Shown: piece after piece, positions 10,264-48,137 of the stretch
Numbering within the stretch: the stretch's first letter is position 1
How the letters are laid out: the number at the start of each line of letters is the position of its first letter
NCBI GenBank assembly: GCA_964352215.1
Contig: CAYGRE010000002.1
Location: forward strand, 22,353-86,352
From: an uncultured Bacteroidia bacterium
Lineage (GTDB): Bacteria; Bacteroidota; Bacteroidia; J057; JADKCL01
Direction: 5' to 3'
Length of the DNA stretch: 64,000 nucleotides
The notes under the pieces: model-generated
Database searches by the model: none
Told to the model about the DNA's origin: nothing
What the model saw: only the letters and a program-made list of their open reading frames with translations
Made by a program: the position numbers and the translations under genes

Positions 10264-10280
10264 AGGATCACCAAATATAC

Positions 10281-10329
10281 TTTTCTTTCCCTTATCTCCT
10301 TTTCTTTCCCTTATCTCCTTTTCTTTCCA
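10281..10329. repeat. 19-bp tandem direct repeat (ttttctttcccttatctcc, 2.6 copies) in a divergent intergenic/promoter region.
   Basis: Two perfect copies at 10281-10299 and 10300-10318 are followed by a partial third. The repeat sits 18-66 nt upstream of the minus-strand start codon at 10263. Confidence 0.8.
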
Positions 10330-10435
10330 CTCCAATCCCGATCTCATTCATTCAATCTGGTTTCCTGGCAATCTCCCCCATTCTGTTTCTTTCCCGACCG
10401 TTGAGTCTTTGTGAATAACCACTCATCCCTTTGAG

Positions 10436-23929: not shown

Positions 23930-24025
23930 CCTGGTGCTTGATCAACTTGAAAGTCAATTGCCGGGCGTGTCCCACCGGGTCTCCCAAGCCTAGTGCTTGA
24001 TCAACTTGAAAGTCAATTGCCGGGC
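23930..24025. repeat. 33-37 bp direct repeat with 59-bp period that duplicates the last 11 codons of the M43 protease gene.
   Basis: gtgcttgatcaacttgaaagtcaattgccgggc occurs at 23934-23966 and again at 23993-24025. The second copy encodes the C-terminal ARQLTFKLIKH. Confidence 0.9.
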
Positions 24026-29497: not shown

Positions 29498-29857
29498 AAA
29501 GGAGAGAAGTATTTTAATGAAAATGATAGTAATACTATAACCTTGCGGAGTATTCCTACGTAAGTATAATCAAACACAAAGAACACCAATTTAGTGAATA
29601 TGATATAAACCGCTACCCAAAACACAAGCCCAACTCGCTAACCGTCCAGAGTCTGACCTCTGGACGGACAACAAACCCAGCAGCGAACATTTAACCAACC
29701 AACTTACTTACCCCACGAAACAATGATCCGGACCGGGTATTCAATCCCGGCTCCGGTTCTGAGTTACTCTTACCTGAATTCTTACCATCGTCATTGTGAA
29801 ATGATTTTTTTCCCACAGGGAATGAATCTATTTTTGTGCCAATGCGGCATTAGACCC

Positions 29858-30643: not shown

Positions 30644-30805
30644 ATGCGCACACTGATGTTCGGAATGGGAACCGGAGAAATCATGTTGATCATATTGGTC
30701 CTCATTGTCATGCTGGTCGTCATCCCCATGATTCTCGTCGTCATCCTACGGCTGACCGGCAAGCACAAGGACCCAGATGACCGCTATCCCGGACATCGAT
30801 CTTAA
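30644..30805 (+). CDS. Unannotated 53-aa single-pass membrane micro-protein whose start overlaps the upstream stop (TAAATG).
   Basis: It falls below the 60-aa ORF-track cutoff. The translation is MRTLMFGMGTGEIMLIILVLIVMLVVIPMILVVILRLTGKHKDPDDRYPGHRS, a strongly hydrophobic 25-aa core with a charged C-terminus. The ATG directly abuts the TAA of the upstream gene. It lies between the nfeD-like and flotillin genes on the same strand. Confidence 0.45.
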   Translation: MRTLMFGMGTGEIMLIILVLIVMLVVIPMILVVILRLTGKHKDPDDRYPGHRS

Positions 30806-30910
30806 TAACAAACCCGTGCAGATTTCCTGATGAAATCGTAAATTATCGACCGAAATCATCTAGTACGGAATTTACCAGAATATTTAACCATTGCACTTTA
30901 ATCATCCGAA

Positions 30911-33091: not shown

Positions 33092-33112
33092 GAACAGTTT
33101 CAGAATTTCACA

Positions 33113-36100
33113 GTGGAAAATACCAATAACATACAACTCGAAGGCGGGGCCTACGAGATCATCCGCAACCGCCTCCTGACCCACGGCACCGAGCTGCGCC
33201 AAAGACTTGGCCAGCTCGATGAAGCCCGCCGGGAGGTGTTCGGATCGATCTCCACCGAACTTCTGGCCACCGACCGGATATCAACTGAAAACAATTGCAT
33301 CGCCAGAGACATCGTCTCTATCGGAGGCAAGTCCATCTTCGGATACAATGTCCAGTTGGGCTTGCGGACCGAGATGCATCTCAAAGATGTCTTTGCAGTA
33401 TTTCACTACAAGGACCAACGCTACCACGAGGACAGCCTGGACTTCATCCGGCATCCACGGTTTGAAGAGGATTTTACCAACCTCTACAAATATTACCGTC
33501 ATACCGTCTTCTCGAAGTTCGCGGTCATCGGTCCACACCTCTATATGGTGTTTCAGATCGGTAAAAGCGTCACCGACATCAAAGCCTTTAAGTTCCTCAT
33601 CACCCCGGAGCAGACCCTCCAATTTGTTGACAGTCGCTCCGAGGCAGAGGTCAGGTATCCCGAACAGCACGAATTCAAATGGGTACGTGCCCACCGGGAC
33701 ATGCACCGGACAGGTCAATTCCCCCATGTATCCATCATGGACAAGGTGTTCGTGGAGACCATGGGCGGAAGCCTGACCATCAAGGTCGAGGACAATACCG
33801 ACTCCGGGCTGGGAATTTACACCGAGGACGTCGACCATAAGGAGCAGTCTCTGGACGACGCGGAAATGTTCTATGCAGATCTGGGCAATATCCTTGTTCT
33901 GAAAATCCGCCCCTTTCAGGAAAAGGATTTTCGCTACATCGCCTACAACGAAAAGATGCAGGAAGCCCGGAGGATTGATACATTGGCGCACAGCTGTGTT
34001 CTCCTCCCCGATAGCCACGGCATCATTTTCGCCAATGGCTATTACCTCCAGACCGGTGAGTACAAGATTTTCCAGACCGGCCTCACCGATCTGCATTTCG
34101 AAAAGCGGATTTCAAGCCCCAATGGTGAAGATTACCTCTATGTATTCTTCAACCAGGACACAGGCTCCTACGTCCTGCTCAGTTACAACCTGATCGCTCA
34201 GAAGGTCGAAGCCCCCATCATCTGCAATGGATTTGCCCTCTTTGAAAATGGCGAGTTGACCTATTTCCGGGCCGAAGTCGAACCGACCAAGCACCACGCC
34301 ATCCAGATCTGGCAGACCCCTTATGTGGGCCTCAATTTCCGACTTCCGGTTTCTGAGGACAACAAGCTGTATAAGATTGGCAACAAGGACATCGTCCGGG
34401 CCATGGCCGAGTGTACCGAGATCCTCACCATTCTCAACAAAGAGGACACCTACGGTGGGCTCTACATCGACCTGGTCAAGCTGAGCGGCAATGTGCTGGA
34501 CAGCTATTACTGGATCGCAGACAAAGACACCTTCCAACTCAACGAACCGCTGAAAGAAATCAGGGAGTCAGCGGAGGGGGCCATTGAAGAGTTTGAGAAA
34601 GTAACCAGGGTACGGAGACACACCCGCGACGAAATGGAACGGGTCAGCCAGGCCGCCGACCACCTCGTCCGCGAGATCAAGCGCTCCATCTTCGAGAATG
34701 TCAACCAATTCGTAAAGATGCTGGCCGACCTCCGCAAGATGCGGGGCGAAGTCATCTCCCTGAAAGAATTGCGGTATGTCGATCTGGAACTCGTGGACCG
34801 CCTGGCAACGGACCTGTCCGAAGAAACCGAACGCCTGTCCCGCAAATGCGTGGAATTCCTACTGCGCGAGGGTGCACTCGCCCCCTACCAGGACAAAGTC
34901 ACCGAAGTCCACGGCGAGATCGACAGCGTCAAAACCGCCGCCGAAGCGGCCCAGGTAGAATTGAAGATCGAGGAGGTCGCCTCTGAACTGGAACTGCTGA
35001 TCGAGATCGTCTCCAATCTCAAGATTGACGATGCCACTCAGACGGCCCGCATCATCGACAGCATCTCGAATATATTCGCCGAGCTCAACCAGGTCCGGGC
35101 CGCCTTGCGCCGCCACAAAAAAGAACTGATGAGCACCGAGGCGGTGGCCGAGTTCAGCGCCCAGCTCAAACTGGTCGGCCAGGCGGTGGTCAACTACCTC
35201 GATGTCTCCGACACCCCTCAGAAATGCGATGAGTACGTCACCAAACTCATGGTACAGGTCGAGGAACTTGAAGGAAAGTTCTCCGAGTACGATGAATTCA
35301 TTGACCAACTCACCGAGAAGCGGGAAGAGATCTACAATGCTTTCGAAGCCCGGAAATTGTCTCTGACCGAAGCGCGTAACAAGCGGGCCTCGGCCCTCTT
35401 CAAGAGCGCAGAACGCATCCTCTCCGGCATCCGCAACCGGGTGGCCCAGTTCGGGGAAGTCACTGAGATCAATGGCTATTTCGCCTCCGACCTGATGATC
35501 GACAAGGTCCGGGACATCGTTGAGAAACTGATGGAGCTGGATGACAATGTCAAGTCCGAAGACCTGCAATCCCGGCTCAAGACCATCCGCGAGGATGCGG
35601 TGCGCCAACTCAGGGACCGCAAAGACCTCTTTGTCGATGGCAAGAATATCATCCAGTTGGGCAAGCATAAGTTTTCAGTCAACGTCCAACCGCTGGACCT
35701 GACCATTGTCCCCAAGGACGACGACCAATACTTCCACCTGAGTGGCACCAATTTTTTTGAGCGCATCCGCAACGAAGACTTCGAAGCCACCCGACCGATC
35801 TGGAAGCAAGAGCTCGTTTCCGAAAGCGAGGAAGTCTACCGGGCCGAATTTCTGGCTTATGCATTCTTCAAAGAAATGGTCGGGGACAGGAAGGGCCTTG
35901 ATGCCTTTGCAAATGCCCCCGAAGCGGAGCAATTGGAGCAACTCCATACCTATATGGGGCCCCGCTACCAGGAGGGCTATGCCAAGGGAGTCCACGACCA
36001 GGATGCCTACGCAATCCTGAACGCATTGCTGACCCTCCATTCCGACATCGGACTGCAACGGTACGCCCCTTCCGTACGGGCCTGTGCCATGCTCTGGTGG

Positions 36101-37996
36101 GAAACCTTCGTTAGCAAATCCGACAAAGCCCTTCTGCAACACCGGCTCAAAGGTGCGGGTTCAGTCCTGAAAGTATTTCCGGATTCCAAAGAATTTGGCG
36201 ACCTGGAAGCAGACATTTCCGAGCTCATCCATCAATTTCAGGAAGCAACCGGCCTCTTTGCCGCGGTATCCCAGTGCCTGGCTGCCGAGTATTTATTTGC
36301 CGAATTGACGCAAAACGACCGCTTTCTCGCTTCCGGCCCGGCCCAGCAGTTGCACCGGGATTTGAACGCATTTCTGAGCCGCAAGTCCTCGGTCAAGACC
36401 TTCCAGGAATCGCTCCGGCAATTGGAAGAGGTACCCGAAGACCGCTATTCGCTGATCTGCAGCTGGCTGACCGCTTATGTAGAAATGGAAGGCAAACCGG
36501 AGGCAGTGGATTATGTCCAGGAAGCCGCAGTGATTCAGTTCCTCGGCGATCAGGACCATTTCCGCACCGTTCCCGGCTCCGTCCATACTGAACTGAAAGG
36601 CCTGCGGGGAGACCATCCTGCCCTGGGAGAAAAAGGCCATTACCGTCTCAACTACAACCACTTCATGGCCCGGCTGGGCAATTACCACCGGGAGACCGTT
36701 CCCAAATTTCACCAATACCACCAGCTCAAGCACAAACTCACCGAAGAGTTCCGGTCTGAGCTCCGCCTCAGTGAGTTCAAACCAAGGGTATTGTCCAGTT
36801 TCGTCCGCAACAAACTGATCGACGAGGTCTATTTGCCCCTGTTCGGCAACAACCTGGCCAAGCAGATCGGCACGGTCGGCGACGACAAGCGCACCGACCG
36901 GATGGGGATGTTGCTCCTCATCTCGCCGCCGGGATACGGTAAGACGACCCTGATGGAATACATCGCCAACCGTCTCGGGCTGATCTTCATGAAGATCAAT
37001 GGCCCCGCGATCGGACACTCGGTGACCGCTCTCGATCCGGAAGAAGCCCCCAATGCTGCTGCCCGCGAGGAACTGCAAAAGCTGAACCTGGCATTGGAGA
37101 TGGGAGACAATATCATGCTCTACATCGACGATATTCAGCACTGTCACCCTGAGTTCCTGCAAAAATTCATCTCACTCTGTGATGCGCAGCGCAAGATCGA
37201 AGGGGTGTACAAGGGCCGTTCCCAGACCTATGACCTGCGCGGCAAACGCGTCTGTGTGGTCATGGCGGGCAATCCTTATACCGAATCCGGCACCAAGTTT
37301 CAGGTACCGGACATGCTGGCCAACCGCGCCGATACCTACAACCTGGGGGATATCATTGGGGAAACGGATACCTACTTCAAATTGTCTCTGGTCGAGAACT
37401 GTCTCACCAGCAACAATGCCTTGCAAAAGATAGCCCAGCGCTCCCACAAGGATGTTTATACCTTCCTGAAAATCGCAGAGACTGACAAACAGGAGGGGCT
37501 GGATTTCGAAGGGAATTATACCCCGGAAGAAGTTTCAGAAATCGTGGCAGTCTTGAAAAAGTTGATGGTGGTGCGGGATGTAATCCTGACCGTCAACCAG
37601 GAATACATCCGCAGTGCTGGGATGGGTGATGAGTTCCGTACGGAACCGGCTTTCAAACTCCAGGGTTCTTACCGGGACATGAACAAGCTGGCAGAGAAGC
37701 TTATCCCCATCATGAACGACCGGGAGTTGAAAGCCATGCTGCTCACCCACTACGAAAGCGAATCTCAAACCCTCACCTCTGGTGCGGAGGCGAATTTGCT
37801 CAAGTTCAAGCAAATGGTGGGTTGGATGACCGAGGAGGAGCAAGCCCGCTGGAACGATATCAAGGCGACTTTTATGAAGAAGCAGAGCCTTCTGGGCATC
37901 GATGCCGGCGACAAATTCGGCCAGGTGATTGCCCAATTGGGGAGTCTGGTGGATGGGATTGAAGGGATGCGAAAAGCAGTGGAAGGACAGAAGTAA
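33113..37996 (+). CDS. Giant (1627 aa) protein with an N-terminal domain of unknown fold, a central roughly 600-aa coiled coil and a C-terminal AAA_5 (MoxR/dynein-related) ATPase domain. It is probably co-operonic with the flotillin gene 22 bp upstream.
   Basis: Walker A is LLLISPPGYGKTTLMEY, Walker B is IMLYIDDIQHCHPEFL, sensor-1 is VCVVMAGNPY, and the Arg finger region is VPDMLANRADTYNL. This order matches AAA_5. Residues roughly 480-1100 have a heptad-rich helical composition. No match to a characterised family could be recalled. Confidence 0.6.
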   Translation: MENTNNIQLEGGAYEIIRNRLLTHGTELRQRLGQLDEARREVFGSISTELLATDRISTENNCIARDIVSIGGKSIFGYNVQLGLRTEMHLKDVFAVFHYKDQRYHEDSLDFIRHPRFEEDFTNLYKYYRHTVFSKFAVIGPHLYMVFQIGKSVTDIKAFKFLITPEQTLQFVDSRSEAEVRYPEQHEFKWVRAHRDMHRTGQFPHVSIMDKVFVETMGGSLTIKVEDNTDSGLGIYTEDVDHKEQSLDDAEMFYADLGNILVLKIRPFQEKDFRYIAYNEKMQEARRIDTLAHSCVLLPDSHGIIFANGYYLQTGEYKIFQTGLTDLHFEKRISSPNGEDYLYVFFNQDTGSYVLLSYNLIAQKVEAPIICNGFALFENGELTYFRAEVEPTKHHAIQIWQTPYVGLNFRLPVSEDNKLYKIGNKDIVRAMAECTEILTILNKEDTYGGLYIDLVKLSGNVLDSYYWIADKDTFQLNEPLKEIRESAEGAIEEFEKVTRVRRHTRDEMERVSQAADHLVREIKRSIFENVNQFVKMLADLRKMRGEVISLKELRYVDLELVDRLATDLSEETERLSRKCVEFLLREGALAPYQDKVTEVHGEIDSVKTAAEAAQVELKIEEVASELELLIEIVSNLKIDDATQTARIIDSISNIFAELNQVRAALRRHKKELMSTEAVAEFSAQLKLVGQAVVNYLDVSDTPQKCDEYVTKLMVQVEELEGKFSEYDEFIDQLTEKREEIYNAFEARKLSLTEARNKRASALFKSAERILSGIRNRVAQFGEVTEINGYFASDLMIDKVRDIVEKLMELDDNVKSEDLQSRLKTIREDAVRQLRDRKDLFVDGKNIIQLGKHKFSVNVQPLDLTIVPKDDDQYFHLSGTNFFERIRNEDFEATRPIWKQELVSESEEVYRAEFLAYAFFKEMVGDRKGLDAFANAPEAEQLEQLHTYMGPRYQEGYAKGVHDQDAYAILNALLTLHSDIGLQRYAPSVRACAMLWWETFVSKSDKALLQHRLKGAGSVLKVFPDSKEFGDLEADISELIHQFQEATGLFAAVSQCLAAEYLFAELTQNDRFLASGPAQQLHRDLNAFLSRKSSVKTFQESLRQLEEVPEDRYSLICSWLTAYVEMEGKPEAVDYVQEAAVIQFLGDQDHFRTVPGSVHTELKGLRGDHPALGEKGHYRLNYNHFMARLGNYHRETVPKFHQYHQLKHKLTEEFRSELRLSEFKPRVLSSFVRNKLIDEVYLPLFGNNLAKQIGTVGDDKRTDRMGMLLLISPPGYGKTTLMEYIANRLGLIFMKINGPAIGHSVTALDPEEAPNAAAREELQKLNLALEMGDNIMLYIDDIQHCHPEFLQKFISLCDAQRKIEGVYKGRSQTYDLRGKRVCVVMAGNPYTESGTKFQVPDMLANRADTYNLGDIIGETDTYFKLSLVENCLTSNNALQKIAQRSHKDVYTFLKIAETDKQEGLDFEGNYTPEEVSEIVAVLKKLMVVRDVILTVNQEYIRSAGMGDEFRTEPAFKLQGSYRDMNKLAEKLIPIMNDRELKAMLLTHYESESQTLTSGAEANLLKFKQMVGWMTEEEQARWNDIKATFMKKQSLLGIDAGDKFGQVIAQLGSLVDGIEGMRKAVEGQK

Positions 37997-38074: not shown

Positions 38075-38809
38075 ATGTCCGATTCTTCATATTTGATCAG
38101 TGACCCGGTTGTATTGCACAACGCCCTGATTGATGCCCATTCCAAGGCGGATGGGTTAAGGTACAGAGCCTTGTGCGACCAGAATTCAAACTTGATTCAC
38201 AAGCACTTCCCAGCCTGGATGGTGATTCCCTACGCCATCAAGAACGATGAAAACGCGGTGAATGTCTATTCGGCTGCGATTGTGAATGTCGCGGTCCACT
38301 TTGCCATGAAGGGCGATACGCGCCTCATGGACCTGATCAACGGTATCGGAGACGATCCTTCTGTAAAATGGGACGAGGCATTCCACCAGTTCGAGGACCT
38401 GATGAAGAAGTTTGACTTCGCCGCTGCCCGTGACTTGTTGCTCGAGGTGGCATCGGAAATGCGGGAGCTGTCCGGGCCGGCCATTGACTACCGTATACCC
38501 TACGTCCACGAACGCCTGACCTGGTTGTTTTTTCTTTCCGGGGACATGGAATCGGCCGAATTGTACGGACGGGCGGCGCTGATGGGATTCAGAAAGACGA
38601 AAAATACCGAAGGGATATTGACAATCACCCGGCGCCTCGCAGACATCTTCAAAGCAGCGGGCGAATGGGAAAAGTCCCGGCAATGGATCATCCGATTTAC
38701 CAATATCCTACTGCAAAATGGCCGTCAGGAGAATGCAGAGGCAGTTCGCAGGTTACATGGGATTGAGCCCCTGGGAGAAGTGATTCCCCTTTCTGCTTCC
38801 GAAGATTGA
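38075..38809 (+). CDS. Hypothetical protein, possibly helical-repeat or TPR-like, probably the last gene of the flotillin/ATPase cluster.
   Basis: It is on the same strand, 79 bp after the giant ATPase. It has no signal peptide and no recognisable motif. Confidence 0.4.
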   Translation: MSDSSYLISDPVVLHNALIDAHSKADGLRYRALCDQNSNLIHKHFPAWMVIPYAIKNDENAVNVYSAAIVNVAVHFAMKGDTRLMDLINGIGDDPSVKWDEAFHQFEDLMKKFDFAAARDLLLEVASEMRELSGPAIDYRIPYVHERLTWLFFLSGDMESAELYGRAALMGFRKTKNTEGILTITRRLADIFKAAGEWEKSRQWIIRFTNILLQNGRQENAEAVRRLHGIEPLGEVIPLSASED

Positions 38810-38882: not shown

Positions 38883-39098
38883 ATGTTATACGCAGACAAT
38901 AAAGAGAATAAGCCCAAGAAAACCCCTGCTGGTCGCGTCAACACTCCTGAGGACGCCCAAGGGCCTTCATTTGCTCCCCCGGAACTCTTCAAAGACGACG
39001 AAGACAAAGAGGATGAAATGGAGGATCATGGTGGACTTTCCGCTACGGAAAAAGAGAAGAAGAAAGCACTCGAGAAGAAGGAAAGAAAGGGACTTTAA
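38883..39098 (+). CDS. Small, highly charged hypothetical protein (71 aa).
   Basis: This is an ORF only. Its composition is KEKKKALEKKERK and it contains the motif GPSFAPPELF seen in neighbouring leader-like ORFs. Its coding status is uncertain. Confidence 0.25.
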   Translation: MLYADNKENKPKKTPAGRVNTPEDAQGPSFAPPELFKDDEDKEDEMEDHGGLSATEKEKKKALEKKERKGL

Positions 39099-40660: not shown

Positions 40661-41023
40661 ATGTTACTGATGCTGTTATTATCATTCCTTGGATCTCGTG
40701 GTGTCACCTTTGCGGAGATGGCTCCTCCACCTCAGTTGACATTGACAGAACATAGCCTCAGTCTTCAGGTCTCTAATTCCAGAGAGCATTCCTCCCTGGT
40801 CATTACCAAAATCGAGTTTTCCAGAGATGAAGATTGCGTGATCCTAAAAGGATGGCAAAAACTTGCTCCTGTGAGTAAACACGATGGCCACTTCGAAGAG
40901 CCATTCGAAAACCTCGACCTTACCTATGAGACAGCTTCTCAGGTCAAGTACTATTGGGAAGATCCTAATGGGAACCGCACCCAAATAGAACTGGAACCAC
41001 AAACCGCAGCTCCTGAGGAATAA
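40661..41023 (+). CDS. Small secreted hypothetical protein.
   Basis: It has a hydrophobic N-terminus, MLLMLLLSFLGSRGVTFA. This is an ORF only. Confidence 0.35.
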   Translation: MLLMLLLSFLGSRGVTFAEMAPPPQLTLTEHSLSLQVSNSREHSSLVITKIEFSRDEDCVILKGWQKLAPVSKHDGHFEEPFENLDLTYETASQVKYYWEDPNGNRTQIELEPQTAAPEE

Positions 41024-41226
41024 TACCCACTTGCTCATCATCGGTAATCCCTTCCGATTAGGTCCTTGGCTATGAGCTCTCTTCCTACCATCGCATTGGT
41101 CTGGGAAAATAAATCATTCATCGAATCTGCGGGCCTGGCCTGAGGGGAAAGTAGTACTTATGTACTGAACAATGAGTAATTCATAATCTTCCAACAGAAT
41201 ACCGAAACAAGCTTTAGAATACCAGA

Positions 41227-41254
41227 AGGCCGCCGAAAGGCGGTCTCTTTTTTT
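41227..41254 (+). terminator. Isolated Rho-independent terminator that may end a small RNA or a long 3' UTR.
   Basis: The stem-loop ggccgcc-gaaa-ggcggtc is followed by TCTTTTTTT. It lies about 200 bp downstream of the nearest plus-strand CDS. Confidence 0.5.
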
Positions 41255-41805
41255 GGGGTTGACCTCGCATTTGAGAAGCGGATTTTGGTGCAACTGCCAA
41301 TCAGGAAGGGAGGCAGACATTTGAGAAAGCTGAAAGGAGTGCGGGCTTTGGCTGCATCTGATACAAGCGGGATGCTGGTCGAGCCACCCCCAATCACCAC
41401 AAAATAGACGCTGGTTAAGCGCAATCGGAGATTGGGGAACTTGACTAGAGAAACAGCAGAAACCAGGAAAGGGTTTCTTCTGTGGAATTACCTGACGATT
41501 TCTGAGGGATTTGATTTTTGCGGGGAAATGATGAAGGTCCGGATGCTCAAACCTGAGCGTCCGGACCTTCAAGGTTCGAGCATCCGTACCTCCAACCTTG
41601 ACAGTTAGGAGGGAACAGGTATTCTACTTGAGACCTGAATATCCGAGCCTGCCGAGGGCCGACCTATTAGGGTCCGGCCCCTCAGATTTGACACTCTTGA
41701 CCCTCATAGGTCGAAGCTTGAGCCCGGCAAATTTGAGGGTAGGGAGGGGAAAGGGTTTATGCTGCCAACACGGGCCTGCCTGGCAAATGACCATCTTCCT
41801 TTATG

Positions 41806-41930
41806 GTCGGGACCCTCTCCCCGAGCCGGTTTCGACCCGGAAAAGAGACGGTCGGGACCCTCTCTCTGTGACGGTTTGGACCCGGAAAAGAGAGGGTCCG
41901 GACCCTCTCTCCTTGAGGCTTGTTCGCCGC
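41806..41930. repeat. 45-bp tandem repeat (about 2.6 units), each unit containing the perfect palindrome gagagggtccggaccctctc.
   Basis: The units are ggtcgggaccctctccccgagccggtttcgacccggaaaagagac, ggtcgggaccctctctctgtgacggtttggacccggaaaagagag and a partial third. Confidence 0.8.
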
Positions 41931-41978
41931 ATCAATGACGGTCCCAACCGTAAAGGTTTGACACTCTTGCTTGTCAAT

Positions 41979-42022
41979 GGGAGACACTTCCGACCCTCAT
42001 TGGAGACACTCCCGACCCTCAT
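41979..42022. repeat. 22-bp direct repeat x2 (gagacacttccgaccctcattg / gagacactcccgaccctcattg).
   Basis: Two adjacent copies differ at one position. Confidence 0.8.
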
Positions 42023-42469
42023 TGATTCGGCATGTTTTTCTCAAATTGCTTTCTAATTCGCTTGCAATTACTGGATGCTGTTGGATACTTGATACCCTGC
42101 AAGGAGTTTGCTGCCACATGAGTGTAATCTCGGTGGTCTTGCTACTACTATGACCGAGCAATGTTTGAATAAATCAAAGATCGGTTCCTGCCCCAAACAA
42201 ATAGGTAGCAAAAGCGGGCTGCCATTCCATAAAATAGCTTCTTAGATCCGGCAGGATCGTCTTACTCAGAAGAGTATAGCGATCACCAGCAAAGCGACCT
42301 GAGAACGGTCTTAACACTTATCAAAAGTAACTTGAGACACCAGCTATAGACCTTCTCGAGTAACAGAGCTGGTAACTAAGAAGCACTGAATCTGATACCA
42401 AGGCAGGTATCTTAAAGTGGTCGAAAAAGGGGATAAATATAGTAATGCTGGAATCAAAAATCTTGAACC

Positions 42470-43099
42470 CTACTTACCATAATTGTCCTGAAGCCCCTCC
42501 CCCCGGAGAATTTTCTCCCGGCATTTTTCAATCCTTGCCAACCGGGTTTGGGATTGCTTCGCAGCGGAAAAATAGAGGATATAGCCTCTCTGCCGCCCAG
42601 GTGTCAATCCCTCAAAGGCGGCTTTCAAATCCGGATCACCCTCCAATGTCTCCAGTAATTCTTCAGGAACAGGCTCAGGGTTCTTCTCAAATTTTACTTT
42701 TTGCCCCGCCTTTTCCAAATCCACCGCCTCATGCACATACGCTTTCAATATGTCTTCCATCTCCAGGATGTCGCTGACCTGGGTAAACCGGGCCTGGCGG
42801 ACAGCCTGAGAATTCTCCCCCGGGGCGACCAATATCTGGTTTGGGTCTTTCATCAGAGCACCTTTAAAGAAAGCAATCACCGCATATTCCTTAAAAGCCG
42901 TCACCAAAAGGACATTCTTATTCTGAAAGGTGTAACAGGGCTGCGACCATTTGAATTCTTCCGTCAATCCATAAGCGAGCACGATCCTTCTCAAATGCTG
43001 CAACTCCTCTGACCAGGTATGGACTTTGCATTGCGGCGTTCGGTACAAGGAACAGCGTCCGCAACCTTCTGATAAATAAATGTCCACTTTGGGATTCAT
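42470..43099 (-). CDS. YdhG/DUF1801-like N-terminal domain plus YdeI/OmpD-associated family C-terminal domain protein.
   Basis: The start was set at MNPKVDIYLSEGCGRCSLYRTPQCKVHTW (typical DUF1801/YdhG N-terminus). The C-terminus GRQRGYILYFSAAKQSQTRLARIEKCREKILRGEG matches the YdeI/OmpD-associated domain. Confidence 0.6.
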   Translation of the reverse strand: MNPKVDIYLSEGCGRCSLYRTPQCKVHTWSEELQHLRRIVLAYGLTEEFKWSQPCYTFQNKNVLLVTAFKEYAVIAFFKGALMKDPNQILVAPGENSQAVRQARFTQVSDILEMEDILKAYVHEAVDLEKAGQKVKFEKNPEPVPEELLETLEGDPDLKAAFEGLTPGRQRGYILYFSAAKQSQTRLARIEKCREKILRGEGLQDNYGK

Positions 43100-43288
43100 G
43101 CTGGTATCTATTATTAAGTAAAGGTCGCCGATGAATGCTCTTGTTTGGGTCCCAAAGTTAACCAATTGGTTTCATTGCCGGGGTTTGAAATTCTTTGTCT
43201 TTTGGGTTTGAATGACAGAAAAAGTGTATATTGCAAATAGCATTTGGACTATCCAGCCAGCACACCTCATAGATACAACCAACTCAAG

Positions 43289-43649
43289 ATGGAAAAGACG
43301 GCCGAACAATCACATGCCTTGGACCAACAAAGTGAGCACAGCCCGGGAAGATCAATGTCTCCCCCTCCTTTCCAACTCCAAGCCAATTCAGAAGATTCTG
43401 GTGAAAAATCGGAAGAGAATTGACCACATGCAATTCACAGCATCAGCTCTTGATATGAAAGTAGGGACAGAGTTCGGTGCCATTTCCTGGGGCTATCAAT
43501 ATGATGAGACCAAAGAAATCTATACTGAAGAAACCCCGCAGCTTCAAGATGCAAAATCGGATAGAATGCAGGGTCGGGACCGTGCAGTAGGCGTTTGGAA
43601 TAAGGATGTTGCCCAAGGGGATATCGACAAGGTACCGGTTTCAGAATGA
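43289..43649 (+). pseudogene. Probable frameshifted paralog of the effector leader region (first frame 43289-43423, continuing in another frame to 43649).
   Basis: The first frame reads MEKTAEQSHALDQQSEHSPGRSMSPPPFQLQANSEDSGEKSEEN*. The continuing frame reads ...DHMQFTASALDMKVG.... Together these mirror SPPAFSIAASPMQQ ... EPMQLTALS of the 39153 protein but are split across two reading frames. Confidence 0.35.
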
Positions 43650-43650
43650 T

Positions 43651-44274
43651 ATGCTCAGAGGATTTCCAGTCCTGGTATTCATCTTCGGCACCTTCTTAAC
43701 TATTGGATGCTGTCAAAATGGTCAATTGGCCAACGATGGGGAAAATATGTCACAGAAAAATATCAATGAGATCGCGGAAATCCTGAAAGGCATGCTTGAA
43801 GAGTCCCACCAGTGCTATACCATTGGCTGTTTTGATGAAACTGAGCGGCTTCGTGGATTGGTGAAGGACTTCGAGAAGCCATGGCAATACTTTCAGCCCA
43901 TTGAAAGTTTTTTCCTCTTTGAGGCCACTCCTGACCTCATTGAATCCGCTGACCGGTCAGTTCTTGCCGCATCCTATAGTAGTGCATTGATGAAATTAAC
44001 CTCTAATTGGTGGGGCCCTCCCGGAAGTCCGGATGGTGCCGCTGCCGACCACCTGCTTGCAATCCCTAATATCACTTCGGACCTCATGCCTCTGCTAAAG
44101 GTCCAAACCCCACTTTCATATCACGGCAGTGAGATCTCCACCATGAATGAAATGTTCGGATGGACGGTGGCAGACCTGGCAGGAGGATTCATCGCTGAGT
44201 TGAGAGGGGAAGCTTATCCCTTCCGCGAAGAATTGGATGTGCGTATTCTCTATCAAAAAGGGCTTCTTGAATAA
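43651..44274 (+). CDS. Hypothetical lipoprotein.
   Basis: The start was set at MLRGFPVLVFIFGTFLTIGCCQN (lipobox). There are no recognisable domains. It may belong with the disrupted upstream ORFs. Confidence 0.4.
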   Translation: MLRGFPVLVFIFGTFLTIGCCQNGQLANDGENMSQKNINEIAEILKGMLEESHQCYTIGCFDETERLRGLVKDFEKPWQYFQPIESFFLFEATPDLIESADRSVLAASYSSALMKLTSNWWGPPGSPDGAAADHLLAIPNITSDLMPLLKVQTPLSYHGSEISTMNEMFGWTVADLAGGFIAELRGEAYPFREELDVRILYQKGLLE

Positions 44275-44436
44275 GCATGGTCCAGCCTTGGATCATGTCT
44301 AAAAGTAATTGGGTTTGGCTCGTGTGAAGGTCCAGACCAGTCCGGCAGAACATCATCAACAGAAACACAAATATGCCATAGGAGCCCTGGAAGAGGGTTT
44401 TGGTTCATAATCCGCGTGTACAGGGGTGACAGCACG

Positions 44437-45032
44437 CGGGTCCAGACCTGCGGGTTCACGGGTTCAGACCCTCGGATTCGAGGGGCCAGACCTGTGGATT
44501 CGCGGGTTCAGACCCGTAGATTCGAGGGTCAAGACCCGTAGATTCGCGGGTTCAAACCCGTAGATTCGCGGGTCCAAACCCGTAGATTCGAGGGTTCAAA
44601 CCCGTAGATTCGAGGGTCCAGACCCGTAGATTCACGGGTTCAAACCCTCGGATTCGCGGGTTCATACCTGTGGACTCAAGGGTTCAGACCCGTAGATTCG
44701 CGGGTCCAGACCCTCGGATTCGCGGGTCCAAACCCTCGGATTCGCGGGTTCAGACCCGTAGATTCGCGGGTTCAAACCCGTAGATTCACGGGTTCAAACC
44801 CTCGGATTCACGGGTCCAGACCCGTAGATTCACGGGTTCAAACCCTCGGATTCGCGGGTCCAGACCCGTAGATTCACGGGTCCAAACCCTCGGATTCACG
44901 GGTCCAAACCCTCGGATTCACGGGTCCAGACCCGTAGATTCACGGGTCCAAACCCTCGGATTCACGGGTCAAGACCCGTAGATTCGCAGGTCCAGACCTG
45001 CGGCTTCGCAGGTTCAAACCCGTAGATTTCGG
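44437..45032. repeat. Minisatellite of about 27 tandem copies of a 22-bp unit (consensus cgggtYcaRacccgtagattcg) between convergent genes. Each unit is self-complementary (gacccg-N8-cgggtc).
   Basis: The units are directly adjacent, with no spacers. Variation is confined to about 4 positions (gcgggt/acgggt/agggt; tt/tc; cag/caa; ccgtag/cctcgg). There are stop codons in all frames. Confidence 0.9.
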
Positions 45033-45200
45033 ACTTTTTGCCTCACCTGAAGCAGCCCAAGATTCGCGAATTGAGTCCATAAAACGTCTGCAAACAGCAC
45101 CTGAAATCTTCTTCTGATCGGGATAGAACTCGTCATGCCAAGGGCGAAGCCCCCAACCGAGGAGAGATAATGATCGGGGCTTTATGCGATGGGGAACGAA

Positions 45201-48137
45201 CTACCGCACAATCAAGCGTTCGACCTTCCTGGCTCCTCCACCCGCAGTGACTTGCAGCAAGTACTGCCCGGCCGGAAGCGACCCGAGGTCGAGCATGACA
45301 CCAGCGCGTGCTTCGACTTCGTCGATGCTCCGTTCCAGCATGGTCTGGCCGACCAGGTTCATGACCTCAATCCTGGCCCCGCCGCTGAGTTCTCCATCCA
45401 AACGGAGCTCAGTATAATCTCCGGCTGGATTGGGAGCCAGTTCGACCAGCAATTGGTCATCCGGGCTGATGATCGCGGCGACGGTATTGGAGTAAGAAGA
45501 AACTCCATTCAGATCGACCTGAAGGAGACGGTATTCGTAGAGGATACCGGGACGGGCATTGCCATCGAGATAGCCATAAGAGACTTGTTGGGTCGTTTCG
45601 CCTTTGGAAGCGACAAATCCAATCCTGGTGAAGGCATCTTCGTAAGCGGCACGGCGCTGCACTTCAAACCCCCGGTTGTCTTCTTCCATGCTGACTTCCC
45701 AGTCGACCGCGATGTCGCGGGAACCGGCGGTGGCAGACAGGTGGACCCATTCCACCGGAAATGCGGTGCAGAAGGGAGGCATGTCAAAGGCTTCATTGCC
45801 ATCAGAACGGTTGTTGGAACTGCCCTGACTGGCAGAGAAACCCATGCCGCGCTTGGCGAAGGCTTCCCAAATGAGACAGGTATGGATGCCGCCAAAGTTG
45901 GCAGAATCGGCCTGGATAATGGCGTCGCGGCCATCCTCCATCCCAGGATCGCAATTCAGGAAAGCCATCCCGTCGATAACGAGGCGCATGGCGATGTTAT
46001 TGCCACCGGTCCCAGCTTCGAGATCGGGATCAAAACCATAGACGTCGATCAGGGACCAGGTCATTTCCCAGATCATATTGCACCAGAGAAAACCGATGCC
46101 GTGGGGCCTGGAAATGGCGCCGGTATTGGCAATGTCCCCGTAAGTAAAAGGGTTAATGGCCATATTGGTGGAATAGGGAGCCGGGCGAATGCCATTGCCG
46201 GAAACCGGCTGGGAAATGGCAAAAGTGCCTATTCCCCGGGCATCACTACCGGCATCACCTGGCTCAATGGTCATGATCAGACCGAGCCAGTCGCTCCAGC
46301 CTTCGCCCATCTGTTCCTGATTGCCGAGGCAACTGGTATTGTTCCCACCTCCGACCAAACGGTTGGAAACGCCGTGCCCGTACTCATGGGCGATGATGCC
46401 ATTGTCCAGGTCACCGTCTTTGTCTACCGCCCCCCCGGAACCGGATAGGCTGACGTTAACGCCAGAGCCGAGCTCGGCCCGGATGATTGCACAGTCCGCC
46501 TGGCTGATCATCACAGAAGGGATGGTGATGGCACCATTGTTGCCGCCCATGGCAAATGGAGCCCCACCGACATTGTTACAGACAATGCAAGCGACGGCTC
46601 CTACATTCTGGGCATTGATTACTTTGTCGACAAAATTGCAATTGCCCCGGTCGACGAGGGCGATATTCCCATTGACCGCGGCCCCGTTGTTGAGCGCATT
46701 GCAGCCTTCGGTGGGCGCACCAGAACCGTCGTTGACGAGGACCAGGTTGCCAGTGATCGGGGTGGTCGGCAGTGCCGGGCCAAAGCCCGCTTCTACTGCA
46801 TTGTAAGCTCCGGCGATATTTCCGGGGCTGTTGACGTCAAAATTGGTGGTTGCCTGACCGGTCCAGAGGAACATCTGCATCCGGGGATTTTGCCCATCGG
46901 GAGGGGTGCCAAAATTAGCATTGTTGATGCCACTGCCATCCTGACAATCAGCATTAACATAATCCGATCCTGCGCCCCCGTTGCCATAGTTATTTTCCTG
47001 AAAATTTCCACCCAACTCGTCAAACCCATACAGGTAAAAGACGTCGTGGATCCGGTTGTTCCAGAAGAAGAGATTGGTCAATGCAGCATCGAGGTAAGTA
47101 TTGGGCTGCAGGTTCAGGTTGATGGGGAAGTTGAAATCGAGGCTGGGACCACCGTCGGCCATCGCACCAGTCCCGTTGTTGCCGTTCTGGTCTTCCTGGG
47201 CCCGGACATTGTTGCCGCGGGTGGTCGTGTATTCTGCACCGGGTACGCCATCGTCGTCGTGCCAACCAAAAGGCGAGGCGGTCAGGTTCCAGGGGTTGGA
47301 AACGATGGTTCGGTTACCGTGGTTGGGGCTTTCCAACGGATCGGCGTAGACGTTGTATGAGTTTGGGGGAGGGGCCGCAGCGGGCAAGGGAGTGGGTGCG
47401 AAGTCGTGCAATTGCAGGGCAGCGCCATCAGAAAGGTGCTCCACTACACAATCTTCATCTCCCTCATGGGGTCCAAAATTGCAGGTCGTCATCCAGTCAA
47501 ATTCGCTCAGTACCCGGCCATTCAATGCATCGATCCGCAAGCTCCACCAGTGGGAGCCATCCTCGGTGAGGATGCTGAGGTCCCAGCAAAGGCGCAGTTG
47601 CTGCCCATCCTTTTCGACGTACATCAGGCGAACCGGGATATCTTCCTGGGAAACACCGCCATTGCTCAGGAGTCCTTGCTGGTCATCTCCTTCGGGACGC
47701 TGGATAAATCTCAGGTCCTGGGGTGTCCCCAGGTTGTAGACAGAAGCAGCCGCCAGGACAGCATCCGTAGCACTCAGAGTTGGAACGGTGGTATTGACCC
47801 GGCGGGCGATATCTGGCAAACAGGCTACTCCCATGCTGAGTACCCGTCCCTGGTCATTGATATTCACATTGACATTGGCCTGAAAGATACCAATCCCGCG
47901 ATATGCCTGACGAAAGTAGACGTGAGAGACGCCATTGAGCCGGGAAGTATAGTTGTCGGTTACGATCATGTCGTCCACGTCCTGTGGAGTCAATTCGTAA
48001 CTGGCAGCCTTGTCCTTCAGGTGATTGAGGGCGATTTGCACAGGGGATTGGGCGGTTAAGATGCCTCCCGTGCATAAAAAAATAATGGCGCTCAGCCAGA
48101 AAGCGGCTTTATGCAGTGATTGAAAAATACGTTCCAT
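45201..48137 (-). CDS. Secreted M36 (fungalysin-like) zinc metalloprotease with an FTP-like propeptide, a PA-like insert and a T9SS type-A C-terminal sorting domain.
   Basis: The signal peptide is MERIFQSLHKAAFWLSAIIFLCTGGILTAQS. The zinc motif IIAHEYGHGVSNRLVGGG corresponds to fungalysin HEYTHGLSNRLTGG. The C-terminus VELAPNPAGDYTELRL ... AGQYLLQVTAGGG ... RLIVR is a Por tail. Confidence 0.8.
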   Translation of the reverse strand: MERIFQSLHKAAFWLSAIIFLCTGGILTAQSPVQIALNHLKDKAASYELTPQDVDDMIVTDNYTSRLNGVSHVYFRQAYRGIGIFQANVNVNINDQGRVLSMGVACLPDIARRVNTTVPTLSATDAVLAAASVYNLGTPQDLRFIQRPEGDDQQGLLSNGGVSQEDIPVRLMYVEKDGQQLRLCWDLSILTEDGSHWWSLRIDALNGRVLSEFDWMTTCNFGPHEGDEDCVVEHLSDGAALQLHDFAPTPLPAAAPPPNSYNVYADPLESPNHGNRTIVSNPWNLTASPFGWHDDDGVPGAEYTTTRGNNVRAQEDQNGNNGTGAMADGGPSLDFNFPINLNLQPNTYLDAALTNLFFWNNRIHDVFYLYGFDELGGNFQENNYGNGGAGSDYVNADCQDGSGINNANFGTPPDGQNPRMQMFLWTGQATTNFDVNSPGNIAGAYNAVEAGFGPALPTTPITGNLVLVNDGSGAPTEGCNALNNGAAVNGNIALVDRGNCNFVDKVINAQNVGAVACIVCNNVGGAPFAMGGNNGAITIPSVMISQADCAIIRAELGSGVNVSLSGSGGAVDKDGDLDNGIIAHEYGHGVSNRLVGGGNNTSCLGNQEQMGEGWSDWLGLIMTIEPGDAGSDARGIGTFAISQPVSGNGIRPAPYSTNMAINPFTYGDIANTGAISRPHGIGFLWCNMIWEMTWSLIDVYGFDPDLEAGTGGNNIAMRLVIDGMAFLNCDPGMEDGRDAIIQADSANFGGIHTCLIWEAFAKRGMGFSASQGSSNNRSDGNEAFDMPPFCTAFPVEWVHLSATAGSRDIAVDWEVSMEEDNRGFEVQRRAAYEDAFTRIGFVASKGETTQQVSYGYLDGNARPGILYEYRLLQVDLNGVSSYSNTVAAIISPDDQLLVELAPNPAGDYTELRLDGELSGGARIEVMNLVGQTMLERSIDEVEARAGVMLDLGSLPAGQYLLQVTAGGGARKVERLIVR

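What the first reader, a model, noticed from the sequence alone, without database searches (positions are those of the whole stretch)
44437..45032. About 27 tandem 22-bp hairpin units between convergent genes, forming a minisatellite rather than a CRISPR array
A roughly 600-bp array of directly abutting 22-bp units (cgggtYcaRacccgtagattcg) lies between the 3' ends of the 43651-44274 gene and the M36 protease gene. Each unit is a small palindrome (gacccg N8 cgggtc), so either transcript would fold into a ladder of about 27 hairpins. Variation is restricted to four positions with two states each, giving a combinatorial 'barcode' pattern. There are no spacers and no cas genes, so it is not a CRISPR. 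It could act as a bidirectional transcription barrier, or as a recombination or slippage hotspot (the copy number is likely variable). It could also be a protein-binding array.
Basis: seen in the sequence. Interest (0 to 1): 0.6.

Follow-up and report, generated by a model that had tools for sequence, protein, structure and literature searches.

The report
Orphan 22-bp hairpin minisatellite
A real, non-coding array of 27 head-to-tail copies of a 22-bp mini-palindrome sits between two convergent genes of an uncultured Bacteroidota bacterium; it is a lineage-specific hairpin minisatellite of a known general kind, not a CRISPR, an RNA gene or a plasmid-type binding array.

Summary
Tandem Repeats Finder gives 27.0 copies of a 22-bp unit at 44435-45028, with 80% matches and no indels. 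The array is non-coding and lies between the 3' ends of a 207-aa lipoprotein gene and a T9SS M36 protease gene. No spacers, cas genes or Rfam family were found. The hairpin rests on invariant GGGT/ACCC bases, and the variable positions show no compensatory coupling. The predicted fold is nested long hairpins, not a ladder.

The unit was not found as an array in genome, metagenome, viral, plasmid or phage collections. Three related genomes lack it. In two of them the M36 gene ends in a classical hairpin-plus-T-run terminator. Here the array marks the M36-side edge of a ~6.1-kb lineage-specific insertion. A degenerate mini-array of the same unit lies inverted 2.5 kb away.

Best reading: a young minisatellite made by tandem amplification of a REP-like palindrome. 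If it does anything, it probably acts as a structured 3' barrier for M36 transcripts. The closest analogue is the 23-nt BrickBuilt minisatellite of Porphyromonas gingivalis, but there is no sequence homology and no terminal inverted repeats. It is a new member of a known kind, of low to moderate interest.

The parts
44435..45028 (+). Main array: 27 abutting 22-bp units. Each has a 14-bp palindromic core, CGGGTY-CA-RACCCG, and an 8-bp linker with a conserved GATTC.
   Evidence: TRF; unit table; alignment A1 with invariant C1 G5 G6 A10 A12 C13 C14 G19 T22; 24 pattern matches against 0.01 expected.
41805..41940 (-). Degenerate mini-array of the same unit family in inverted orientation. It has about 5 cores (GGGTCCNRACC) at 22-23 bp spacing, seen as a 45-bp period x 2.4. 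It contains a perfect 22-nt palindrome, AGAGAGGGTCCGGACCCTCTCT, at 41889-41910.
   Evidence: TRF rows; inverted pairs I1 and I3-I5; reverse-complement local alignment scores 37, against direct 25 and shuffles 16.4 +/- 2.7 with a maximum of 26; it is also the best non-array hit of the unit profile.
44275..44298 (+). 10-bp stem hairpin immediately after the stop codon of the 207-aa gene.
   Evidence: Fold of 44268-44345.
44381..44401 (+). 8-bp hairpin with a U-rich 3' arm followed by GGUU, just upstream of the array. It is a weak, terminator-like element for the + strand gene.
   Evidence: Fold of 44340-44440. It was not called by the strict terminator scan.
45029..45200 (-). 172-nt spacer between the M36 stop codon and the array. 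It has no hairpin-plus-T-run terminator, so M36 transcripts are expected to run into the array.
   Evidence: Terminator scan finds nothing between 44275 and 45200. Folds are not better than shuffles, z -0.09 and +1.13. Orthologous loci L040 and L041 have clear hairpin + T-run terminators at this position.
43651..44274 (+). Flanking gene (context only): a 207-aa predicted lipoprotein with no family hit. It forms a conserved pair with the upstream 111-aa ORF.
   Evidence: The single homologue, P0128, lies on contig L035, which has no array.
45201..48137 (-). Flanking gene (context only): a T9SS-secreted M36 fungalysin-type metalloprotease.
   Evidence: Pfam Peptidase_M36 8e-136, plus PA, FTP and Por_Secre_tail; orthologues found.

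Best explanation
The feature is a lineage-specific, non-coding hairpin minisatellite. A 22-bp unit was amplified head-to-tail, probably first as a 44-45-bp dimer, by replication slippage or unequal recombination. The unit carries a short REP-like GC-rich palindrome, GGGTYCARACCC, and a conserved GATTC linker. Amplification took place inside recently acquired DNA at a gene-insertion hotspot just downstream of the M36 protease gene. No dedicated protein or RNA machinery needs to be invoked.

Its most likely consequence is structural. M36 transcripts have lost the classical terminator seen in relatives, so they run into a 600-nt stretch that folds into very stable hairpins. That stretch would stall or terminate RNA polymerase and protect the 3' end from exonucleases, as shown for REP elements. 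It would also insulate the convergent lipoprotein operon from read-through.

At the DNA level the array should be prone to copy-number change, and it breaks short-read assembly graphs.

Shown here: the anatomy, non-coding status, lineage restriction, position at the insertion edge, lack of covariation, and lack of a canonical M36 terminator. Inferred: the amplification mechanism, the terminator or mRNA-stabiliser role, and the instability.
For: - The array is real, in strict 22-bp phase and without indels.
- It is non-coding. Stop codons occur in all frames and the longest internal ORF is 46 aa.
- No Rfam family matches at gathering thresholds. The relaxed search gives only sub-threshold hits to eukaryotic miRNA-precursor hairpin models, which reflect generic hairpins.
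- The hairpin is carried by invariant bases. 86% of cells are paired against at most 50% in slid controls, but covariation equals the shuffle expectation (0.213 against 0.225 +/- 0.032). Pair 3-16 is broken in half of the distinct units. This fits an amplified DNA palindrome rather than an RNA under structural selection.
- The edge units (1, 3, 26) and unit 11 are the most divergent. Lag-2 unit identity is raised, 0.842 against 0.809 +/- 0.015, P = 0.018, matching the 45-bp period of the sister mini-array. Both are typical minisatellite signatures.
- The exact unit pattern gives only singleton chance hits in 185,579 species genomes, JGI metagenomes and IMG/VR. There is no match in plasmids or phages.
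- Relatives with 81%, 67% and 66% M36 identity have no array and no unit.
- Synteny places the array at the M36-proximal edge of a ~6.1-kb block (39.1-45.2 kb) that L040 and L041 lack. All four genomes carry different cargo at this site. GC drops to 0.456 at 42-44 kb.
- L040 and L041 have a hairpin + T-run terminator after M36. The window has none before the array.
- Folding is extreme, z -21 and -18.
- Precedent exists. REPs lie mainly 3' of genes and between convergent ORFs, are often reiterated in tandem, and are credited with mRNA stabilisation, termination and gyrase binding (PMC3733652). [quoted passage not shown]
Against: - There are no expression or 3'-end data, so the terminator or stabiliser role is pure inference.
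- The units lack a U-tract after the stem, so they are not canonical intrinsic terminators.
- Fifteen of 22 positions are invariant or nearly so across 27 copies, including the unpaired GATTC linker. This could reflect sequence-specific selection, such as a binding protein, rather than youth or homogenisation.
- There is no run-length clustering of variants and no raised lag-1 identity, which simple slippage would predict.
- Only ~69 kb of the source genome could be inspected, so a dispersed family elsewhere is not excluded.
- The full 27-unit length rests on one assembly.
Confidence: 0.55

Rival explanations
1. The array is derived from a mobile element. It would be the internal minisatellite of a BrickBuilt-like MITE, or a tandem cluster of REP units spread by a RAYT-type transposase, with further copies elsewhere in the genome.
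For: - A second, degenerate array of the same unit lies 2.5 kb away in the opposite orientation.
- The array lies in a lineage-specific insertion.
- BrickBuilt has 23-nt units, 1 to 22.8 copies, an intergenic position, frequent T9SS-CTD or protease neighbours and long stem-loops.
- 14 of 27 units carry GTAG at the foot of the stem, and 4 more carry GYGG. REP tags are known to degenerate to GYRG or GTGG.
- REPs with 5-bp stems occur as tandem clusters in Thauera.
Against: - There is no terminal inverted repeat between the array flanks. The best reverse-complement match scores 14, against a shuffle mean of 16.
- The flanks share no leader or tail with the flanks of the mini-array.
- The unit has no similarity to the BrickBuilt unit AGAYCATARTATCCTCTCRTRTG.
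- No transposase or RAYT is present among the window ORFs scanned.
- No solitary units occur in ~69 kb.
- The GTAG overlaps the stem and sits 3' of the hairpin, which by my recollection is the mirror image of canonical REPs. It is replaced by TCGG in 9 units.
- Head-to-tail REP arrangements are rare.
- GTAG REPs were not reported in Bacteroidetes.
Confidence: 0.2
2. The array is a protein-binding platform on DNA. A dimeric protein would bind each GGGT-N4-ACCC core, spaced every two helical turns. This resembles plasmid centromeres (sopC, parC), iterons, or gyrase/NAP-binding BIMEs. The result would be a nucleoprotein filament acting as an insulator, a topological barrier or a segregation site.
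For: - The 22-bp phase is strict with zero indels over 594 bp.
- The half-sites GGGT and ACC are invariant, and the linker GATTC is conserved although it is not needed for the hairpin.
- The same core recurs at the same 22-23-bp spacing at 41805-41940.
- The variable positions show no pairing constraint.
- The position between convergent genes is where positive supercoils accumulate and where E. coli BIMEs bind gyrase (own knowledge).
Against: - No ParA/B/R/M, Rep, HTH or other DNA-binding gene was detected next to either array.
- The context is chromosomal housekeeping: lepA, folD, nadC, nadE.
- There are no matches in 72,556 plasmids or 50,697 phages.
- There are no isolated operator-like sites elsewhere in the window.
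- The array is absent from close relatives, so it has no conserved role.
Confidence: 0.12
3. The two inverted arrays are the ends of a foldback-type composite element, or of an invertible or excisable cassette (41805-45028). The cassette would carry the DUF1801 gene and the 111-aa and 207-aa gene pair.
For: - The arrays are in inverted orientation and bracket 3 genes.
- An independent unitig, L034, spans exactly from inside the left array to inside the right array.
- The region has low GC.
Against: - The insertion relative to the relatives runs from 39.1 to 45.2 kb and does not coincide with 41805-45028.
- No recombinase or transposase is present.
- No target-site duplication or second copy was seen.
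- The only homologous gene pair elsewhere (L035) has no arrays.
- The left array is short and degenerate.
- The unitig breaks can be explained by repeated 31-mers.
Confidence: 0.05
4. The array encodes a structured non-coding RNA or a long dsRNA hairpin with its own function, such as a protein sponge or an RNase III substrate.
For: - Predicted stability is extreme on both strands.
- G-U-compatible changes occur at pairs 2-17, 4-15 and 8-11 on the + strand.
- A mirror arrangement pairs CGAGGG units 3, 5, 8 and 9 with CCCTCG units 19, 17, 14 and 13 about one axis. The WC+GU statistic gives P = 0.0145.
Against: - Covariation is no better than shuffles.
- The mirror coincidence is not significant: P = 0.07 for the motif test and 0.25 for Watson-Crick pairs only.
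- No promoter-like site is adjacent.
- No Rfam family matches.
- There is no conservation in any relative.
Confidence: 0.04
5. The array, or its length, is an assembly artefact of a short-read metagenome-assembled genome.
For: - The source appears to be an uncultured-organism contig.
- Logan k=31 unitigs break in the array.
- 59 distinct 31-mers are repeated within it.
Against: - The first 90 bp of the array and its flank are reproduced at 100% identity in an independent assembly.
- No 55-mer is repeated, so standard k=55-127 assembly resolves the unit order.
- The pattern of 20 distinct unit variants is not what a collapsed or expanded repeat looks like.
Confidence: 0.04

Closest known systems
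BrickBuilt minisatellite/MITE of Porphyromonas gingivalis (Klein et al. 2015, PMC4596501)
   Same: - It is in the phylum Bacteroidota.
- It has tandem 23-nt units without spacers, with 1 to 22.8 copies.
- It is strictly intergenic, and stop codons prevent translation.
- It has imperfect units with both conserved and variable positions.
[quoted passage not shown]
- It is often next to T9SS-CTD and protease genes and is species-restricted.
- It breaks draft assemblies.
   Different: - There is no sequence similarity (AGAYCATARTATCCTCTCRTRTG against CGCGGGTCCAGACCCGTAGATT).
- The unit here has a GC-rich 14-bp palindromic core.
- No leader or tail segments and no IS5-like terminal inverted repeats were found.
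- Only two loci are seen in ~69 kb, whereas BrickBuilt has 19 copies per 2.3-Mb genome.
- No promoter activity is known for the array here.
REP elements and their tandem clusters (BIMEs; GTAG/CGTC-tagged REP super-families, Di Nocera et al. 2013, PMC3733652)
   Same: - They are short GC-rich imperfect palindromes with 5-13-bp stems.
- They are extragenic, preferentially 3' of genes and between convergent ORFs.
- They are frequently clustered or reiterated in tandem.
- G-T pairs are frequent in the stems.
- Their proposed roles are mRNA 3'-end stabilisation, termination and gyrase binding.
- A GTAG or GYRG motif sits at the foot of the stem in 18 of 27 units here.
   Different: - REPs are dispersed in tens to thousands of copies. 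Here no solitary copy occurs in ~69 kb.
- REP clusters are mostly head-to-head or tail-to-tail, and head-to-tail arrangements are rare. This array is purely head-to-tail at a fixed 22-bp period.
- The GTAG overlaps the stem and lies 3' of the hairpin.
- No RAYT gene is in the window.
- GTAG REPs have not been described in Bacteroidetes.
Plasmid/phage centromere and iteron arrays (F sopC 12 x 43 bp with an internal inverted repeat; pSK41 parC 20-bp tandem repeats; lambda ori iterons) - from my own knowledge
   Same: They are tandem direct repeats of about 20-43 bp. Each unit contains a dyad-symmetric core, and spacing is a whole number of helical turns.
   Different: - Those arrays lie next to par or rep genes on plasmids or phages and usually have 4-12 copies.
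- Here there are no par or rep genes and the context is chromosomal.
- There are 27 copies, and there are no plasmid or phage matches.
CRISPR arrays
   Same: Both have short, partly palindromic direct repeats at regular spacing. CRISPR finders are likely to flag this locus.
   Different: There are no spacers at all, the unit is only 22 bp, the units are degenerate, and the window has no cas genes and no leader.

Membership tests
CRISPR array | Repeats separated by unique spacers of similar length | tested here: not met
   Units abut at an exact 22-bp period with no intervening sequence.
CRISPR array | cas genes nearby (or elsewhere in the genome) | tested here: not met
   No Cas family appears among about 45 window ORFs scanned with Pfam, NCBIfam and PADLOC. 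The rest of the genome could not be tested.
REP / BIME (GTAG-tagged palindromic repeats) | Short (20-40 bp) imperfect GC-rich palindrome in extragenic DNA, usually 3' of genes | tested here: met
   The stem has 6 bp and the loop 4 nt, -8.6 kcal/mol. 86% of cells are paired. The array lies between convergent 3' ends.
REP / BIME (GTAG-tagged palindromic repeats) | Many dispersed copies across the genome | tested here: not met
   A profile search finds no significant copy outside the two neighbouring arrays in the 64-kb window or in 4.6 kb of extra sequence. The whole genome was not available.
REP / BIME (GTAG-tagged palindromic repeats) | Conserved terminal GTAG (or CGTC) tag that is not base-paired | tested here: inconclusive
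   Positions 16-19 read GTAG in 14 units, GYGG in 4 and TCGG in 9. G16 and T17 are part of the stem, and the tag lies 3' of the hairpin.
REP / BIME (GTAG-tagged palindromic repeats) | Associated RAYT (Y1 transposase) gene | not testable with these tools
   None is in the window.
BrickBuilt-type MITE with internal minisatellite | Spacer-less tandem 22-23-nt units in an intergenic position | tested here: met
   compared with PMC4596501.
BrickBuilt-type MITE with internal minisatellite | Leader and tail segments ending in IS5-like terminal inverted repeats (GAGACCTTTGCA) | tested here: not met
   The best inverted match between the flanks scores 14, below the shuffle mean of 16.3. The flanks show no similarity to those of the second array.
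BrickBuilt-type MITE with internal minisatellite | Sequence homology of the unit | tested here: not met
   The published consensus AGAYCATARTATCCTCTCRTRTG is unrelated to CGCGGGTCCAGACCCGTAGATT.
Centromere (sopC/parC) or iteron array | Adjacent partition or replication-initiator genes on a plasmid or phage replicon | tested here: not met
   The neighbours are a DUF1801 protein, a 111-aa protein, a lipoprotein and an M36 protease. The window is chromosomal. There is no plasmid or phage similarity.
Intrinsic (rho-independent) terminator | GC-rich hairpin followed directly by a U-tract | tested here: not met
   The hairpins are present, but no terminator-like site was called between 44275 and 45200. 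The units are followed by AGAUUC. This lowers 'is a canonical terminator', not 'acts as a transcription or exonuclease barrier'.
Any Rfam RNA family | Covariance-model score at or above the gathering threshold | tested here: not met
   There are 0 hits at gathering thresholds. The relaxed search gives only miRNA-precursor models at 21-35 bits against thresholds of 65-100.

The most novel reading that the evidence does not exclude
The array and its inverted sister mini-array are not passive. They could be the ends of a bacterial 'foldback'-type mobile or invertible cassette. Alternatively they could be a binding platform for an unknown protein that marks or creates the gene-insertion hotspot downstream of the M36 gene. 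In that case the invariant GGGT-N4-ACCC core plus GATTC would be a recognition site. Either reading would define a new class of tandem-palindrome boundary element in Bacteroidota.
Probability: 0.07. Interest if true: 0.7.

Novelty: new member of a known kind. Interest (0 to 1): 0.25.

Why it matters
The value is mostly practical.
- The locus will be called a false CRISPR, and it breaks short-read assembly graphs.
- It is a ready-made VNTR marker for tracking strains of this uncultured Bacteroidota lineage.
- It adds a second, unrelated example after BrickBuilt of a ~22-bp hairpin minisatellite next to a T9SS protease gene in Bacteroidota. This hints that such arrays arise repeatedly in 3' intergenic DNA.
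- The M36 gene appears to have swapped a classical terminator for a 600-nt hairpin array. This gives a clean natural test of whether such arrays terminate transcription or stabilise mRNA.

If the array proved to be a protein-bound boundary of an insertion hotspot, it would matter more.

Tried and rejected
- **Exact degenerate unit pattern** in genome contigs, metagenome contigs and viral contigs: only 32 singleton chance matches, no arrays.
- **blastn 'distant'** of the array against plasmids and phages: no match.
- **Source contig look-ups** by exact protein: the NCBI contig itself could not be fetched. Only Logan unitigs were returned.
- **Gene linkage.** The 207-aa neighbour has a single homologue, whose contig has no array, so the array is not tied to that gene.
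- **Terminal inverted repeats, or shared leader and tail**, around the two arrays: none above shuffle level.
- **Long-range mirror symmetry or compensatory pairing** across the array: suggestive by eye (units 3, 5, 8, 9 against 19, 17, 14, 13), but P = 0.07 to 0.25, and 0.0145 only when G-U pairs are counted. Rejected as evidence.
- **Intra-unit covariation:** none beyond shuffles.
- **Restriction or methylation-site idea** (GANTC in every unit): GANTC is not avoided elsewhere, 201 observed against 247 expected. Dropped.
- **Resemblance of GGGTTCAAACCC to a tRNA T-arm:** no tRNA or tmRNA is in the window. Treated as coincidence.
- **Defence-system link** to the nearby DUF3686 giant ATPase cluster: no meaningful PADLOC hits.
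- **PDB sequence searches** of neighbouring small proteins for DNA-binding folds: nothing. One query had wrong coordinates.
- **Bacteroidota-type or sigma-70 promoter** next to the array: none convincing.
Full report
**1. Is it there?**

Yes. Tandem Repeats Finder reports a single array at 44435-45028 with period 22, 27.0 copies, 80% matches, no indels and score 586. Cutting the sequence every 22 bp from 44435 gives 27 units in perfect register. A degenerate unit pattern matches 24 times against 0.01 expected from dinucleotide shuffles, and every match lies inside the array. The consensus is CGCGGGTCCAGACCCGTAGATT. Nine columns are invariant (C1, G5, G6, A10, A12, C13, C14, G19, T22) and five more are at least 90% conserved.

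- Positions 2, 3, 8, 11, 16, 17 and 18 are highly polymorphic.
- Positions 4, 15 and a few others vary occasionally.
- There are 20 distinct unit sequences among the 27.
- Four 3'-half types occur: CCCGTAG x14, CCCTCGG x9, CCTGCGG x2 and CCTGTGG x2.

The array is non-coding. The longest ORF touching it is 68 aa, and ORFs internal to it are at most 46 aa. A 22-bp period shifts the reading frame at every unit, and the units contain TAG and TGA.

**2. Is it an assembly artefact?**

Probably not. An independent Logan unitig from run ERR3534965 is 100% identical to window 41882-44524. That span includes the left flank and the first four units. The unitig stops where two alternative continuations exist in the array. 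The longest exact repeat inside the array is 50 bp, and no 55-mer recurs. The unit order can therefore be resolved by ordinary k>=55 assembly of 150-nt reads. The total length of 27 units is not independently confirmed.

**3. Surroundings**

The array lies between convergent genes.
- Upstream on the + strand is a 207-aa predicted lipoprotein (43651-44274). It is preceded by a 111-aa ORF, and neither has a family hit.
- On the - strand is a 978-aa M36 fungalysin protease with PA, FTP and T9SS sorting domains (45201-48137).

The window is ordinary chromosome of an uncultured Bacteroidota bacterium. It carries lepA, folD, nadC, nadE, TonB-dependent receptors and many T9SS substrates. No transposase, integrase, par, rep or cas gene was found among the ORFs scanned. 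No tRNA and no Rfam family at gathering thresholds are present in the window. A relaxed Rfam search of 41000-45400 returns only far sub-threshold hits to eukaryotic miRNA-precursor models, which are generic long hairpins.

**4. A second, related locus**

A degenerate array lies 2.5 kb to the left, at 41805-41940. TRF reports it as a 45-bp period x 2.4. It carries the same GGGTCCNRACC core every 22-23 bp, but on the opposite strand.
- The reverse-complement local alignment to the main array scores 37 (29 of 36 identical).
- The direct orientation scores 25.
- Shuffles give 16.4 +/- 2.7, with a maximum of 26.

It contains a perfect 22-nt palindrome at 41889-41910. It sits in an ~870-bp non-coding stretch rich in related small palindromes. 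A profile of the unit finds no other significant copy in the 64-kb window, and this locus is its best non-array hit. The profile also finds nothing in 4.6 kb of further sequence from the same genome or in ~63 kb from three relatives.

**5. Distribution**

The degenerate 20-nt unit pattern gives only single, scattered chance matches: 10 in genome contigs, 20 in metagenome contigs and 2 in IMG/VR. Each has exactly one core. blastn against 72,556 plasmids and 50,697 phages finds nothing.

The closest available relatives have M36 orthologues at 81%, 67% and 66% identity (L033, L040, L041). None has a tandem array.

Synteny mapping gives the following picture.
- In L040 and L041 the genes homologous to window 38075-38809 and 38883-39098 lie downstream of M36. 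In L041 they lie directly downstream.
- In the window a ~6.1-kb block (39.1-45.2 kb) is interposed. It carries a 277-aa ORF, a TPR protein, small ORFs, the repeat-rich non-coding stretch, a DUF1801 gene, the 111-aa and 207-aa pair, and the array.
- L033 and L040 each carry different cargo at the same site.

The array therefore marks the M36-proximal edge of lineage-specific DNA at an insertion hotspot. GC falls to 0.456 at 42-44 kb, against about 0.51 overall.

**6. Structure**

One unit folds into a 6-bp stem with a 4-nt loop, -8.6 kcal/mol. Any unit can pair with any other, so longer stretches fold into nested long hairpins rather than a ladder.
- The whole + strand gives -391 kcal/mol, z = -21.
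- The - strand gives -361.5 kcal/mol, z = -18.

Counting pairs over the 27 units gives 86% of cells paired, against at most 50% in slid controls. The covariation score (0.213) equals the shuffle expectation (0.225 +/- 0.032). Pair 3-16 is broken in half of the distinct units. The hairpin thus rests on invariant GGGT/ACCC, and the variable positions are not coupled.

An apparent mirror symmetry pairs CGAGGG units 3, 5, 8 and 9 with CCCTCG units 19, 17, 14 and 13 about one axis. It is not significant: P = 0.07 for the motif test, 0.25 for Watson-Crick pairs only, and 0.0145 when G-U pairs are counted.

Unit identity is slightly raised at lag 2 (0.842 against 0.809 +/- 0.015, P = 0.018) but not at lag 1. 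This echoes the 45-bp period of the sister locus and suggests amplification of a two-unit block.

**7. Transcription context**

The + strand gene has a 10-bp hairpin directly after its stop codon (44275-44298). It also has a second hairpin with a U-rich 3' arm at 44381-44401, before the array.

The M36 gene has no hairpin-plus-T-run site in the 172 nt between its stop codon and the array. Its orthologues in L040 and L041 have textbook terminators at that position. M36 transcripts are therefore expected to enter the array. This step is inference, because no expression data are available.

**8. Most likely explanation**

The feature is a young, lineage-specific hairpin minisatellite. It was produced by tandem amplification (slippage or unequal recombination) of a REP-like palindromic unit within recently acquired DNA. 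If it has an effect, it most likely acts as a structured 3' barrier for M36 transcripts. That barrier could cause termination or stalling, protect the 3' end from exonucleases, and insulate the convergent operon. It is also likely to be a locus prone to copy-number change.

I give about 0.85 to the identity statement and about 0.35 to the functional one. The combined confidence is 0.55.

Two observations argue against a purely neutral reading. The unpaired GATTC linker is strongly conserved, and the 22-bp phase is exact. Both would also fit a protein-binding platform (rival, 0.12). However, no candidate binding gene, no replicon context and no isolated sites support that rival.

**9. Comparison with known systems**

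- **BrickBuilt minisatellite of P. gingivalis.** This is the nearest analogue. It has 23-nt spacer-less units and up to 22.8 copies, and it is intergenic. [quoted passage not shown] It is enriched next to T9SS-CTD and protease genes and causes assembly gaps (PMC4596501). Membership fails on unit homology and on the defining leader and tail with IS5-like terminal inverted repeats.
- **REP/BIME elements.** These share the small GC-rich palindrome, the preference for 3' and convergent positions, tandem clustering and even a GTAG-like foot (PMC3733652). The array fails the dispersed-copy criterion in the sequence available. It is purely head-to-tail, and no RAYT gene is in view.
- **Centromere and iteron arrays.** These share only the geometry.
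- **CRISPR.** This is excluded by the absence of spacers and of cas genes.

**10. Verdict**

The feature is real and was described essentially correctly. It is a new, apparently orphan member of the known class of bacterial intergenic hairpin minisatellites and REP-like clusters. Interest is low to moderate (0.25).

The most novel reading not excluded is that the inverted array pair forms a foldback-type cassette, or that the array is a protein-marked boundary of an insertion hotspot. I give this a probability of about 0.07.

Noticed in passing
window 41534-42040: An ~870-bp non-coding stretch is packed with short related palindromes and repeats. These are: the inverted repeat GAAGGTCCGGA-N16-TCCGGACCTTC (41534-41571); a 45-bp x 2.4 array (41805-41912); a perfect 22-nt palindrome (41889-41910); a 22-bp x 2 repeat (41977-42020); and TTTGACACTCTTG, which occurs twice (about 41687 and 41957). 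Only the 41805-41940 part was tied to the main array. The rest is unexplained.
   Followed up: partly
window 27860-37996: A ~10-kb block is absent from relatives L040 and L041. It encodes a Rieske/glutamate-synthase-like protein, a 306-aa protein, a 726-aa protein and a 1627-aa DUF3686/DUF7902/AAA+ ATPase. It could be an uncharacterised defence or repair module. The only PADLOC hits are weak (LmuB-like, 5e-6).
   Followed up: partly
window 22117-23241: A Fic/DOC-family gene sits between nadC and a DUF4783 gene. Those two genes are adjacent in relatives L040 and L041, so this is another small lineage-specific insertion.
   Followed up: no
window 10280-10328: A perfect 19-bp x 2.6 tandem repeat (CTTTTCTTTCCCTTATCTC) overlaps the 5' end of the - strand ORF 9493-10347, about 100 bp upstream of the 1626-aa T9SS (CHU_C) protein gene. 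It could be a variable promoter-region repeat.
   Followed up: no
window 30025-30107 and 23930-24025: A 36-bp x 2.3 repeat lies inside ORF 29723-30643 and is in-frame (12 aa). A 37-nt direct repeat (97% identical, 59 bp apart) spans the 3' end of the M43 peptidase gene.
   Followed up: no
L040 12941-13030; L041 12990-13030: The M36 orthologues in two relatives end with strong hairpin + T-run terminators. The window's M36 gene has none. The terminator seems to have been displaced by the insertion that carries the array.
   Followed up: yes
L034 (window 41882-44524), L039 (starts at window 46982): Logan k=31 unitigs of the same organism break inside both arrays and also inside the M36 gene at 46982. 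The break in M36 is unexplained and may reflect strain variation or coverage.
   Followed up: no
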